Shown here: positions 50,552-52,615 of the stretch, in pieces
Layout: every line of letters begins with the position of its first letter
How positions within the stretch are numbered: position 1 is the stretch's first letter
NCBI GenBank assembly: GCA_963702095.1
Contig: OY969706.1
Coordinates: 320,001 to 384,000 of the forward strand
Length of the DNA stretch: 64,000 nucleotides
Direction of reading: 5' to 3'
Origin: Candidatus Bathyarchaeota archaeon
GTDB taxonomy: Archaea; Thermoproteota; Bathyarchaeia; Bathyarchaeales; Bathycorpusculaceae
The notes under the pieces: model-generated
Databases searched by the model: none
Seen by the model: the letters and a program-made list of their open reading frames with translations, nothing else
What the model was told of the DNA's origin: nothing
Made by a program: the position numbers and the translations under genes

Positions 50552-51208
50552 TTAGGCCTCATATTCTGTTGGGTCAGCTACGCCTGCTTCAACAAACGCT
50601 TTTTTGCGGTTTACACAAGACTCGCATCTGCCACAGTGTTTGGCACCGTCAAGGTAGCATGACCACGTCAACTCGAAGGGCACACCCAGTTTGGCGCCCT
50701 CTTTGATTAGCTCTGACTTTTTACCGCCGCTAAAGGGTGCTTTGATGGTGATTTCTTGGCAGGTGCCCAGTCGGGCGGCTTTTTCGAAAGCTTCGTAGAA
50801 TTCTCGGCGGCAATCGGGGTAGAAGGGTTCGTCGCTGCCTTGTGCGCCGTAGAAGATGTGGGTTGCTTCTACGGTGACTGCGTATGCGACGGCTGCTGAG
50901 AGGAAGATGGCGTTGCGGAAGGGTACGATGATTGGGCTGCTGAACTCCGCTGTTAAGGGGATGTCGCGGTTGACCAGTGAGGTGGCGCCGCTGAAGATGT
51001 CTTTGAGGTTTGAGAGGTCGATGGTTTTTGTGGTTGTGCCAAGTGTTTGGGCGATTTTTTGGGCTGCCTCTGTTTCTTTGACGGCGATTTGGCCGTAGTT
51101 GAAGGTGATGGGGTAGATTTGGTAGCCATGATTTTTTGCCCAGTATGCGACGGTGGCTGAGTCTGGACCGCCGCTGAGCACTATGACGCATTTCATGTTT
51201 TGTCTCAT
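50552..51208 (-). CDS. queC: 7-cyano-7-deazaguanine (preQ0) synthase
   Basis: LSGGPDS, FNYGQ, VPFRN.IFL, YPDCR, TWSCY....HCGRCESC. Confidence 0.92.
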   Translation of the reverse strand: MRQNMKCVIVLSGGPDSATVAYWAKNHGYQIYPITFNYGQIAVKETEAAQKIAQTLGTTTKTIDLSNLKDIFSGATSLVNRDIPLTAEFSSPIIVPFRNAIFLSAAVAYAVTVEATHIFYGAQGSDEPFYPDCRREFYEAFEKAARLGTCQEITIKAPFSGGKKSELIKEGAKLGVPFELTWSCYLDGAKHCGRCESCVNRKKAFVEAGVADPTEYEA

Positions 51209-51726
51209 GGTTTTTTTGCTCCATAATTTGTTTGTGTTTCAAACCACCGTTGCAAGCCCGCTTTTTTCAGCAGCTTGAACAGTGGCCAACCGATCAGCAC
51301 GCTTGCGATTAGGTTTCCAGCCACGACGTATGCGATGCTAATTGGTAACGGTATGTTGTAGGGTGCGGATAACATCCAGCCTACAGTAGTGCCCAAGACC
51401 AATGAGTAAGCTACGCATGTGGCGAGTACAGAGTAGTCGTTGTGTGTTTTCTTGTAAACATAGTAGACGACAAACGCCATGACAAACGATGGTATAGTGT
51501 TAAGTAAGTCAATTACGCCAAGGGTTGAGAAAAGGTTGGCGATGAACACTCCTAAGGTGTGTCCCAAAACACCTGCTATACCCAGCAGGGGAACAGCAGC
51601 AACCATAGAATCTGCTATTCTGATATTGAGGGGTCCATAAGAGATGAATCCGAGGGCAACAACTAGTGCCACATACAATGCAGCATAAACTGCCATAAGA
51701 GCTATTTCTTTACTTCGTAGTTTCAA
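51205..51726 (-). CDS. queT: QueT-family transporter (7-deazaguanine precursor)
   Basis: A.YAALYV.L....ISYGP.N.R motif, LG.FIAN.FS..G..D; about 5 TM helices; coupled to queC. Confidence 0.82.
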   Translation of the reverse strand: MKLRSKEIALMAVYAALYVALVVALGFISYGPLNIRIADSMVAAVPLLGIAGVLGHTLGVFIANLFSTLGVIDLLNTIPSFVMAFVVYYVYKKTHNDYSVLATCVAYSLVLGTTVGWMLSAPYNIPLPISIAYVVAGNLIASVLIGWPLFKLLKKAGLQRWFETQTNYGAKKP

Positions 51727-51825
51727 ATGTTATTTGCCTCCCAACTCCGGGTTTTATATTATTTGGCGCAACGGGTGGGAAGCTCCACTCACGCGCCAGC
51801 TCGCAGTAAACAGCAGAGTTGCCTA
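51727..51825 (-). ncRNA. candidate structured 5' leader (riboswitch-like) of queT-queC
   Basis: Stems CAACUCUG/CGGAGUUG, GGCGC/GCGCC, GUGG/CCAC; GCUUCCCA is complementary to UGGGAGGC, which contains the SD. Confidence 0.5.
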
Positions 51826-51970
51826 AAAACGTTTAGGAAAGCACTCTGGGAGTTGAGAGTCTTTTTAATGTTGGCGAAATATTAATTAGGCGCACAGAAA
51901 GATTACATGATGCATCTTCATCCAGTGGATGGCATTCCGCACAAACGGAGTTTTAAGGGAGCACAAAACT

Positions 51971-52615
51971 ATGTCACAAAATAATACAGCTAGCCAACTA
52001 GTCCTTAAAGGAACAACTACAATCGGCGTCGTCTGCAAAGACGGCGTAATCTTAGCTTCAGACACCCGCGTAACCATGGGCTTCTATGTGGCACATAAAT
52101 TCGGCAAAAAAGTCTACAAAATCGACGACCACATCGGCATGACCATAGCCGGCACAGTCGCCGACGCTCAACGCGTCGTAGACATCCTAATTGCTAACGC
52201 TCAGCTGTATAAAATCAACCTGAACCGCCCCATCCCCGTGGCTTCCGCTGCACGTTTAGTCGCCAACCTCCTGTTCTCAGCAAGATATGTTCCACTGGCA
52301 ACACAGGTTCTTGTCGGCGGCGTAGACAACACTGGACCCCACGTTTTCAACTTGGATCCATACGGCAGCTTAAACGAAGAAAAAATGATCTCCACCGGCA
52401 GCGGTTCACCCATCGCGCTTGGTGTACTTGAAGACAAGTACCGCGAGGGTATGACCATCCAGGAAACTTTGCCCACTATCGCCAGAGCGGTGAATGCCGC
52501 CATGAAACGTGACGTAGCAAGCGGCAACAGCTACAATATCATCGTCATCGACGAGCATGGTTACAAAGAGTTGTCTGAAGAGGAAAAAGCTAAACTGCTC
52601 AAAGCAGGAAGTTAG
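51971..52615 (+). CDS. psmB: proteasome beta subunit
   Basis: Propeptide then GTTTIG, ASDTR, AGTVADAQ, TGSGS. Confidence 0.95.
   Translation: MSQNNTASQLVLKGTTTIGVVCKDGVILASDTRVTMGFYVAHKFGKKVYKIDDHIGMTIAGTVADAQRVVDILIANAQLYKINLNRPIPVASAARLVANLLFSARYVPLATQVLVGGVDNTGPHVFNLDPYGSLNEEKMISTGSGSPIALGVLEDKYREGMTIQETLPTIARAVNAAMKRDVASGNSYNIIVIDEHGYKELSEEEKAKLLKAGS

What the first reader, a model, noticed from the sequence alone, without database searches (positions are those of the whole stretch)
51727..51825. Candidate 7-deazaguanine (preQ0/preQ1-type) riboswitch ahead of archaeal queT-queC
Seen (mRNA sense): GGCAACUCUG-cuguuuacugcgagcu-GGCGC-gu-GAGUGG-agcuuc-CCACCC-guu-GCGCC-aaauaauauaaaacc-CGGAGUUGGGAGGC-aaauaacau-UUG. 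Three pairings are possible: outer stem CAACUCUG/CGGAGUUG (51821-51814 with 51749-51742), inner hairpin GGCGC..GUGG/CCAC..GCGCC, and an 8-bp pairing of the loop region GCUUCCCA (51783-51776) with UGGGAGGC (51743-51736), which contains the SD. Established: bacterial queT and queC are classic targets of preQ1 riboswitches (classes I-III), which use pseudoknots, A-rich linkers and SD sequestration. Archaea use preQ0 for archaeosine, and very few archaeal riboswitches are validated. The sequence does not cleanly fit a class I recognise. Inference: a possible new or variant translational riboswitch sensing preQ0 or a related base.
Basis: partly seen in the sequence, partly recalled or inferred. Interest (0 to 1): 0.75.

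Follow-up and report, generated by a model that had tools for sequence, protein, structure and literature searches.

The report
Candidate archaeal queT-leader pseudoknot riboswitch
A roughly 75-base folded RNA leader in front of a 7-deazaguanine transporter gene is conserved across the uncultured Bathyarchaeia and looks like a new kind of metabolite-sensing switch that can hide the ribosome-binding site.

Summary
On the minus strand, window 51797-51724 is the leader of a queT-queC operon.

- **Conservation.** A covariance model built from 25 same-genus leaders hit 120 of 151 genomes of the order, 89 of 151 of the class (record titles: Bathyarchaeia) and 27 of 151 of the phylum.
- **Gene association.** Of 150 first downstream ORFs, 144 are Pfam QueT and 1 is QueC. 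The QueT proteins are only about 20-40% identical outside the genus.
- **Not a known class.** No Rfam family matches, including preQ1-I, -II and -III.
- **Supported pairings.** The pseudoknot runs from an invariant CCG/CGG pairing to an anti-SD:SD helix. P2' and the SD-sequestering part of the pseudoknot exclude each other.
- **Unsupported pairing.** It lies between a positionally conserved TATA-like box and the inferred transcription start.
- **Reading.** I read this as a new class of 7-deazaguanine (most likely preQ0) translational OFF riboswitch.

Ligand binding, the transcription start and regulation are untested. I found no published description in four literature searches.

The parts
51822..51829 (-). 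TATA-like box (TTTTTAGG) of the queT promoter
   Evidence: Sequence. A TTTWWW word starts 30-36 nt upstream of P1 in 85 of 159 unique homologous leaders, with an information peak at -32 to -28. Function is inferred from archaeal promoter geometry (own knowledge).
51798..51801 (-). Inferred transcription start, 1-4 nt 5' of P1
   Evidence: Inference only, from the TATA-to-P1 distance. No RNA run was listed.
51793..51797 (-). P1 5' strand (GGCGC)
   Evidence: Pairs with 51765-51769. 99.6-99.8% of cells are paired. Compensatory types are G:C/C:G 82/18 and G:C/A:U 72/16 in A5. These are the top two MI/APC column pairs.
51789..51792 (-). Junction GUGA; its G and U are invariant in 100 of 100 order-level leaders
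   Evidence: Column counts, (columns 10-13).
51775..51788 (-). Inner hairpin P2': GUGG (51788-51785), loop AGCUUC, CCAC (51778-51775)
   Evidence: Columns 14-16 with 39-41 are 95-97% paired. The pair 15-40 is UA:80, GC:4, CG:2. This hairpin was not part of the model that made the alignments.
51775..51783 (-). Anti-SD strand (GCUUCCCAC), shared by P2' and the pseudoknot
   Evidence: Pairs with 51736-51745. The window duplex is -18.5 kcal/mol.
51772..51774 (-). CCG, 5' strand of pseudoknot helix S2a
   Evidence: Pairs with CGG at 51747-51749. 99-99.7% paired and almost invariant.
51770..51771 (-). UU (L2), invariant in 100 of 100
   Evidence: columns 45-46.
51765..51769 (-). P1 3' strand (GCGCC)
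   Evidence: See the P1 5' strand.
51750..51764 (-). A-rich linker L3 ending in an invariant AAA, one variable base, then CC
   Evidence: Columns 69-71, 73 and 74 are invariant in 100 of 100. Linker length varies.
51736..51749 (-). Pseudoknot 3' strand: CGG (S2a), G-U (S2b), then the SD GGGAGG (51742-51737) plus C (S2c)
   Evidence: Pairs 39-83 (CG:72, UA:11) and 41-80 (CG:70, UA:5, UG:5) covary. Cognate tails pair better than non-cognate tails in 115 of 152.
51724..51726 (-). TTG start codon of queT
   Evidence: The start codon aligns at the end of the model in nearly all hits.
51205..51726 (-). queT (ECF-type S component, predicted 7-deazaguanine precursor transporter)
   Evidence: Pfam PF06177, 4.5e-23.
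50552..51208 (-). queC (7-cyano-7-deazaguanine synthase); overlaps the queT stop by 4 nt
   Evidence: Pfam PF06508, 3.5e-61. It is the only strong QueC match in the genome.

Best explanation
The leader is a cis-acting structured RNA that I read as a new class of riboswitch for a 7-deazaguanine, most likely preQ0. It controls translation of the queT(-queC) mRNA.

**Shown by comparison.**
- A 5-bp helix P1.
- An inner hairpin P2' inserted in the first loop.
- A 3-bp pseudoknot helix S2a (CCG with CGG), reached through an A-rich linker.
- A cluster of invariant unpaired bases at the P1/S2a junction (GU, UU, AAA, CC).
- S2a can continue, across two one-base bulges, into S2b and S2c, which pair the anti-SD strand with the SD. 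S2b and S2c use the same bases as the 3' strand of P2', so these are alternative states.

**Inferred.**
- Without ligand, P2' holds the anti-SD strand and the SD is free (ON).
- Ligand bound at the P1/S2a junction stabilises S2a. The tail then invades P2', and the SD is sequestered in an 11-12 bp helix (OFF).
- Transcription starts a few nucleotides 5' of P1, so the RNA begins with the aptamer.
For: **Distribution.** Model R1 was built from 25 same-genus leaders, with P1 and 3 inner pairs only.
- It hits 120 of 151 genomes of the order at E<=0.1, in all 12 families sampled.
- It hits 89 of 151 genomes of the class at E<=1e-3.
- It hits 27 of 151 genomes of the phylum. Outside the class the hits are in 3 families (9/15, 3/3, 2/2).
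- It hits once in the window's own genome.

**Gene association.** 144 of 150 first downstream ORFs are Pfam QueT and 1 is QueC. QueC follows QueT in 20 of 100 loci.

**RNA far more conserved than the protein.** About 20 columns are invariant in 100 of 100 leaders. The ORFs aligned are about 15-40% identical to the first sequence outside its close kin.

**Pair counts.**
- P1+PK on A5: 94.2% paired; 64 cells changed on both sides against 14.0 +/- 3.1 in shuffles (0/500); covariation score 0.170 against at most 0.055 for slid partners.
- A4: 93.6% paired, 0/500 shuffles.
- The unbiased MI/APC scan ranks 9-48, 5-52 and 39-83 first.

**P2'.** 95-97% paired, with GC/CG replacements of U15-A40.

**Two-partner signature.** Columns 39 and 41 vary almost only between C and U, which keeps pairing to G16/G14 (GU:12, GU:9). 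Meanwhile their tail partners switch between G and A (UA:11, UA:5).

**Strand.** G-U pairs occur only on this strand, for example 26-88 UG:12 and 5-52 GU:7. This favours RNA over a DNA site.

**Control type.** There is no terminator-like site in the leader, which fits translational control.

**Metabolic logic.** QueD was found in only 6 of 101 genomes of the order, all at least 90% complete, and not in the own genome. ArcTGT is present. QueT-mediated salvage is therefore probably the main route to preQ0.

**Precedent.** Bacterial queT genes are classic preQ1-II and -III riboswitch targets (PMC11625349, sections 6 and 7 read).
Against: - No ligand binding, TSS or expression data exist. No RNA run was listed.
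- The single-sequence fold is no better than shuffles.
- Much of the core never varies, so S2a and parts of S2c rest on conservation, not covariation (helix 42-44/74-76 has no change on both sides).
- The SD/anti-SD complementarity is partly forced by the 16S rRNA.
- The sequences are related, and the alignments hold loci I selected (100-source cap). The shuffle counts are therefore not probabilities.
- 17-22% of cells in S2b are unpaired in the alignment.
- The base before the P1 3' strand is U, not the C that class I uses to read the ligand. Recognition would have to differ.
- The OFF direction and the strand-invasion step are inference.
Confidence: 0.6

Rival explanations
1. It is a riboswitch with the architecture described, but its ligand is another molecule handled by QueT/QueC. 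Candidates are CDG (the QueC substrate), preQ1, archaeosine base, or an ordinary purine.
For: Ligand identity rests only on gene association. Most genomes of the order lack QueD. A queT-queC operon suggests that a precursor upstream of preQ0 may be imported. The class I specificity C before the P1 3' strand is absent.
Against: End-product feedback by preQ0 is the simplest logic for both a transporter and QueC. Every known riboswitch on queT senses preQ1/preQ0 (PMC11625349, sections 4, 6, 7). 80 of 100 loci have no QueC within 1.5 kb.
Confidence: 0.15
2. The conserved fold is the binding site of a protein (a translational repressor or an RNA chaperone) or of a tRNA, not of a small molecule.
For: Conservation and covariation alone cannot tell a riboswitch from a protein-binding leader. 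Archaeosine is a tRNA modification, so a macromolecular readout is conceivable.
Against: The element occurs once per genome and only before queT/queC. It is small. Its invariant unpaired bases cluster at a helix junction of an H-type pseudoknot with an A-rich linker, which is the layout of known small-molecule pseudoknot aptamers (PMC11625349, section 4). No conserved partner gene was seen in the flanks I read, but I did not survey this systematically.
Confidence: 0.1
3. It is a ligand-independent structure: a constitutive damper of translation, an RNA thermometer or an mRNA stability element.
For: The loop-to-SD helix is strong on its own (-18.5 kcal/mol in the window; mean -16.9 over 152 leaders). 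It could form without any ligand.
Against: About 20 invariant positions, many of them unpaired, and two mutually exclusive conserved pairings are not needed for simple SD masking. The strict tie to one gene family is also not expected.
Confidence: 0.1
4. It is a DNA-level operator for a transcription factor in the queT promoter.
For: It lies directly downstream of a TATA-like box, where archaeal repressors often bind.
Against: Compensatory changes keep RNA pairs, including G-U pairs that would be A-C on the other strand. The paired segments are up to 50 nt apart and interleaved as a pseudoknot. The 3' strand is the SD itself.
Confidence: 0.03

Closest known systems
preQ1-I riboswitch (Rfam RF00522; types I-III)
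   Same: An H-type pseudoknot with a 5-bp P1. An A-rich L3 leads into a short P2/S2 whose 3' strand runs into the SD. It regulates 7-deazaguanine salvage and synthesis genes and gives translational SD occlusion (PMC11625349, section 4).
   Different: No match to the Rfam model. The element is about twice as long. L1 carries a hairpin and 4 conserved bases instead of 2-3 nt. L2 is an invariant UU instead of a loop ending in UC or AC, so the specificity cytosine is missing at that place. It is found in Archaea.
preQ1-II riboswitch (RF01054)
   Same: It sits before queT. It is a pseudoknot with an embedded hairpin (HLout type). The whole SD pairs with an anti-SD inside the pseudoknot helix next to the presumed pocket (PMC11625349, section 6).
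   Different: No match to the Rfam model. The consensus and helix order differ. Class II is reported only in Bacillota (the same section). Here the embedded hairpin competes with the SD helix.
preQ1-III riboswitch (RF02680)
   Same: It sits before queT and has anti-SD:SD docking through a second pseudoknot (PMC11625349, section 7).
   Different: No match to the Rfam model. Class III is about 100 nt with five helices and an SD far from the pocket. Here the SD helix is continuous with S2a.
Second queT leader type seen here ('type B', loci L027, L029, L354-L356, L359, L362)
   Same: The same S2a words (CCG...CGG), the same A-rich linker ending in AAC/ACC, a 5-bp P1, and the same gene family downstream.
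   Different: It is only about 37 nt. It has UUU as L1 with no inserted hairpin, and an L2 ending in AAC. That fits the class I description, yet it also gives no Rfam hit. It is absent from the window's genome.

Membership tests
preQ1-I (RF00522) | Match to the family covariance model | tested here: not met
   No preQ1 hit at E<=10 in window 51400-52200, nor at E<=1 in 10 homologous loci.
preQ1-I (RF00522) | H-type pseudoknot: 5-bp P1, A-rich L3, and a short P2 whose 3' strand follows L3 | tested here: met
   P1 is 99.6-99.8% paired with compensatory changes. S2a is 99-99.7% paired. AAA in L3 is invariant.
preQ1-I (RF00522) | UC or AC immediately 5' of the P1 3' strand (the specificity cytosine) | tested here: not met
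   The two bases there are U and U in 100 of 100 leaders. The next C pairs with position 9 and switches to G together with it, 18 of 100 in A5. Feature taken from PMC11625349, section 4.
preQ1-I (RF00522) | Minimal size (about 34 nt) with an L1 of 2-3 nt | tested here: not met
   It is about 60 nt from P1 to the SD. L1 holds GURR plus a hairpin.
preQ1-II (RF01054) | Match to the family covariance model; P1-P4 HLout consensus | tested here: not met
   No hit. The helix order differs from the description in PMC11625349, section 6.
preQ1-II (RF01054) | Complete SD paired to an anti-SD within the pseudoknot | tested here: met
   Columns 23-27 with 85-91 are 92.1% paired in A5, and 4 of 5 pairs have changes on both sides.
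preQ1-III (RF02680) | Match to the family covariance model; about 100 nt and five helices | tested here: not met
   No hit. The element is shorter and has fewer helices.
Riboswitch (general) | Conserved structured 5' leader tied to genes of one pathway | tested here: met
Riboswitch (general) | Alternative, mutually exclusive pairings that link the aptamer to an expression platform | tested here: met
   P2' and S2b/S2c share columns 26-27 and 39-41, and both are kept.
Riboswitch (general) | Direct, selective binding of a small molecule and ligand-dependent regulation | not testable with these tools
   Needs in-line probing or ITC, and reporters.

The most novel reading that the evidence does not exclude
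This is the first riboswitch class native to and widespread in Archaea (Bathyarchaeia and a few other Thermoproteota families) that senses preQ0, the archaeosine precursor. Its fold is distinct from preQ1-I/II/III: an H-type pseudoknot with a hairpin in L1 that is displaced when the ligand-stabilised pseudoknot zips into the SD. It would govern 7-deazaguanine salvage in organisms that mostly lack de novo synthesis.
Probability: 0.5. Interest if true: 0.85.

Novelty: new variant of a known kind. Interest (0 to 1): 0.8.

Why it matters
- **Few archaeal riboswitches are validated.** As far as four full-text searches show, none is described for the 7-deazaguanine/archaeosine pathway or for Bathyarchaeia.
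- **It can be tested directly.** This candidate is short, very strongly conserved, present in most genomes of a globally abundant uncultured class, and comes with a clear structural model. A 75-nt transcript and commercially available or synthesisable ligands would suffice.
- **What it would add if confirmed.** It would add a fourth architecture to the preQ sensor family and give a natural translational switch for archaeal genetics.
- **A physiological clue.** It points to dependence on salvaged 7-deazaguanines in Bathyarchaeia. QueD was found in only 6 of 101 genomes.

Tried and rejected
- **Rfam.** No relevant hit in the window region, in 10 homologous loci or in the type B leader.
- **Single-sequence MFE fold.** z = -0.57, not informative. 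It also used the outer stem, which is probably untranscribed.
- **RNAalifold on the genus alignment.** It found only P1; there was too little variation.
- **A first nested alternative for the loop** (GU with AC plus GAG with CUC). No change on both sides, and no better than shuffles. Dropped in favour of P2'.
- **Outer stem.** Not conserved.
- **Nested MFE folds of 159 leaders.** Dominated by a local CCCC/GGG tail hairpin. They cannot represent the pseudoknot and are not used as evidence.
- **Helix X** (G14, G16-G18 with columns 72-75). 92-93% paired; A:U replaces G:C at 14-75 in 2 sequences; mixed types at 18-72 with 23-26 unpaired cells. Kept only as tentative.
- **Weak model hits (E > 1e-5).** These were tRNA-Ser or lay inside coding regions.
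- **RNA runs.** No RNA holder was listed for window 51200-52000.
- **Supplements.** Supplementary files of papers were not consulted. Those of the class I-III survey cited in the review could list archaeal or metagenomic hits that I could not see.

Full report
**What is in the window.** On the minus strand, a 173-codon ORF starting with TTG at 51726 is a QueT transporter (Pfam PF06177, 4.5e-23). It overlaps by 4 nt a QueC gene at 51208-50552 (PF06508, 3.5e-61). A proteasome beta-subunit gene runs the other way from 51929. A scan of 51400-52200 against Rfam 15 at E<=10 gave only three chance-level matches and no preQ1 family. The minimum-energy fold of the region is no better than shuffled sequence (z = -0.57). 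One sequence alone therefore shows nothing; the case rests on comparison.

**Conservation in the genus.** A search of 61 related genomes found QueT in 50. In 24 same-genus orthologues the proteins are 58-73% identical by tblastn. The 220 nt upstream share a block that is almost letter-perfect while the flanks are not. The 25-sequence alignment has 31 invariant columns. The window and four kin carry GGCGC...GCGCC where the others carry GGCGG...CCGCC, a compensatory change in the helix I call P1.

**Distribution.** I built a covariance model (R1) from the 25 leaders, annotated only with P1 and three inner pairs.
- It hit 120 of 151 genomes of the order at E<=0.1, including 87 of 105 high-quality genomes and every one of the 12 families sampled. 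There is usually one strong hit per genome, and one in the window's own genome.
- It hit 89 of 151 genomes sampled from the class at E<=1e-3.
- It hit 27 of 151 sampled from the phylum. Outside the class the hits lie in three families (9/15, 3/3, 2/2), and there are none in the other families sampled outside the class.
- The weakest hits were false. Two were tRNA-Ser genes. Those at E above about 1e-4 lay in coding sequence.

Of the 80 listed, nearly all are titled Bathyarchaeia or Bathyarchaeota. A few carry other labels. One 'Krumholzibacteriaceae' contig has the same length as a contig placed in the window's order and gives an 84-nt hit with the same score (50.9 bits). One 'Methanocella' contig encodes QueT and QueC that are 65% and 77% identical to the window's. 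I suspect binning or labelling errors for these. The two records labelled Promethearchaeota or Promethearchaeati remain open.

**Gene association.** I took the 160 distinct loci with hits that went into alignments A4 and A5.
- A simple ORF caller found a first downstream ORF of at least 60 codons in 152.
- Of the 8 without one, 2 are cut by contig ends. At least 4 of the others do have a QueT match by tblastn.
- I scanned 150 of the 152 ORFs against Pfam, leaving out the last two because of the size limit. 144 are QueT and 1 is QueC.
- QueC follows QueT within 1.5 kb in 20 of the 100 A4 loci. One locus has the order motif-queC-queT.
- The five out-of-class loci I tested for both genes (L347, L349, L351-L353) also read motif-queT-queC.
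- The ORFs in the 150-sequence alignment are mostly 20-35% identical to its first member.
- The RNA keeps about 20 columns invariant in 100 of 100 leaders.

**Structure.** Alignments A4 (order level, 100 leaders, E<=1e-6) and A5 (60 class-level plus 40 order-level leaders) were made by R1. Only P1 and pairs 10-41, 11-40 and 12-39 could have been fitted. The 100-source cap forced me to choose which loci went in.

- **P1.** It is 99.6-99.8% paired. Pair types are G:C 82 / C:G 18 at its inner pair and G:C 72 / A:U 16 / G:U 7 at its outer pair. By my mapping of loci to the genome tables, the C:G type occurs in the window's subclade and in at least five other families.
- **Pseudoknot.** It runs from an almost invariant CCG (columns 42-44), pairing with CGG after an A-rich linker (S2a), through C-A-Y with R-U...G (S2b), to the anti-SD CCUCC with the SD GGAGG (S2c).
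  - With P1 it is 93.6% paired on A4 and 94.2% on A5.
  - On A5, 64 cells are changed on both sides against 14.0 +/- 3.1 in column shuffles (0 of 500 reach it).
  - The covariation score is 0.170, against 0.007-0.055 when the partners are slid by 1-3 columns.
  - An MI/APC scan of all column pairs, made without any structure, ranks the two variable P1 pairs first and S2b pair 39-83 third.
  - Each leader's own tail pairs with its loop better than tails from other leaders: mean -16.9 against -15.1 kcal/mol, against -10.1 for shuffled tails; better in 115 of 152. Because the sequences are related, these figures are descriptive, not probabilities.
- **Inner hairpin P2'.** It is 95-97% paired in its core, and U15-A40 is replaced by G-C in 4 leaders and by C-G in 2.
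- **Exclusion.** P2' and S2b/S2c use the same 3' bases and so exclude each other. P2' and S2a are compatible.
- **Two-partner signature.** Columns 39 and 41 change almost only between C and U. That keeps a G-C or G-U pair with the fixed G16 and G14. Their tail partners switch between G and A. This is what a strand with two alternative partners should show.
- **Strand.** G-U pairs occur throughout on this strand. This argues for RNA and for this orientation.
- **Tentative extra pairing.** The G-run of L1 may pair with the C-run at the end of the linker.

**Promoter and the outer stem.** A TTTWWW word starts 30-36 nt upstream of P1 in 85 of 159 unique leaders, and the information content peaks there. 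In the window it is TTTTTAGG at 51829-51822. Given the usual archaeal spacing between TATA box and start (own knowledge), transcription should begin 1-5 nt before P1. Independently, that pairing is not conserved. No terminator-like site lies between the fold and the start codon.

**How it most likely works.**
- *Shown:* the helices, their exclusivity, the invariant junction bases (G10, U11, U45, U46, A69-A71, C73, C74) and the tie to queT.
- *Inferred:* the aptamer is P1 + P2' + S2a, that is, an H-type pseudoknot with a hairpin in its first loop. A 7-deazaguanine binds at the P1/S2a junction, as in class I pseudoknots, where the A-rich loop lies in the P1 minor groove (PMC11625349, section 4). 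The stabilised S2a then lets the tail invade P2', so the SD ends up in an 11-12 bp helix and translation of QueT (and QueC) falls.
- *Why preQ0 is the favoured ligand:* these are archaea with ArcTGT. QueD was not found in the own genome and was found in only 6 of 101 genomes of the order. QueE gave only a weak radical-SAM-level match. Salvage through QueT, with QueC in some operons, therefore appears to be the main route.
- *Still possible:* CDG or another base as the ligand, or an ON logic.

**Comparison with known classes.** From the review I read sections 4, 6, 7 and the first part of 8 (PMC11625349).
- Class I needs UC or AC before the P1 3' strand, a very short L1 and about 34 nt. Here that place is an invariant UU, L1 holds a hairpin, and the model does not match.
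- Class II shares the queT context, an embedded hairpin and full SD burial. It has a different consensus and is reported only in Bacillota.
- Class III is larger, with a remote SD.

The element works like a preQ1-type pseudoknot switch but is not a member of any of the three families.

**Literature.** Four full-text searches found no paper describing a riboswitch in Bathyarchaeia, a preQ0 riboswitch or a fourth preQ1 class. I read passages of PMC5372724, which mention queT under preQ1 riboswitches in bacteria and preQ0 salvage in archaea. A passage of PMC9723716 was irrelevant. Subscription journals and supplements were not covered.

**Verdict.**
- A real, widespread, structured cis-regulatory RNA: about 0.9.
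- A small-molecule riboswitch for a 7-deazaguanine acting on translation: about 0.6 for preQ0, with a further 0.15 for another ligand.
- Novelty: a new variant (a new class) of a known kind.

Noticed in passing
L027:1454-1495 (+), L029, L354, L355, L356, L359, L362: A second, much shorter queT leader ('type B') precedes a QueT paralogue about 30% identical to the window's. It occurs in six same-genus genomes and in one genome of a sister genus. It has a 5-bp stem, UUU, CCG, a loop ending in AAC, the stem's 3' strand, an A-rich run and CGG. It fits the textbook class I layout and shares the CCG/CGG and A-rich words with the main motif, yet it gives no Rfam hit. One genome (G030) carries both types before different QueT genes.
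   Followed up: partly
window 50552-51726 (-) and the whole genome G000: The genome has QueC, QueT and ArcTGT, but no QueD match and only a weak QueE-like match. QueD was found in only 6 of 101 genomes of the order. The queT-queC operon therefore suggests salvage of a precursor that still needs QueC (CDG?) rather than de novo synthesis.
   Followed up: partly
G135 (L057, L061), G096 (L055, L082), G168 (L059, L111), G233 (L313, L331), G278 (L314, L320, L343): Some genomes carry two or three copies of the motif, each before its own QueT paralogue. The third copy in G278 (L343) is degenerate: several otherwise invariant bases are changed.
   Followed up: partly
L140 and L343 (alignment columns 14 and 75 of A4): The only two leaders with U instead of C at column 75 are also the only two with A instead of G at column 14. 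This hints at a contact, either a pair or a base triple, between the first loop and the start of the pseudoknot 3' strand.
   Followed up: partly
L231, L238, L175, L230, L166, L220, L173: Motif-bearing contigs are filed under other labels: Krumholzibacteriaceae, Methanocella, Acidiferrales, Promethearchaeota or Promethearchaeati, and Methanomethylicota. The first two look like binning or labelling errors. The 'Actinomycetota' hit (L175) is a chance partial match. The Methanomethylicota hit (L173) is motif-queT-queC, and motif-queT-queC loci were also found in three other families of the phylum outside the class.
   Followed up: partly
window 51929-52615 (+): A proteasome beta-subunit gene diverges from queT. 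The two start codons are about 200 nt apart, so the two promoters share a short intergenic region.
   Followed up: no
L025 (G002:C9): The QueT orthologue of one same-genus genome is split into two overlapping frames (two tblastn pieces). This is a possible frameshift or an assembly error. Its leader is intact.
   Followed up: no
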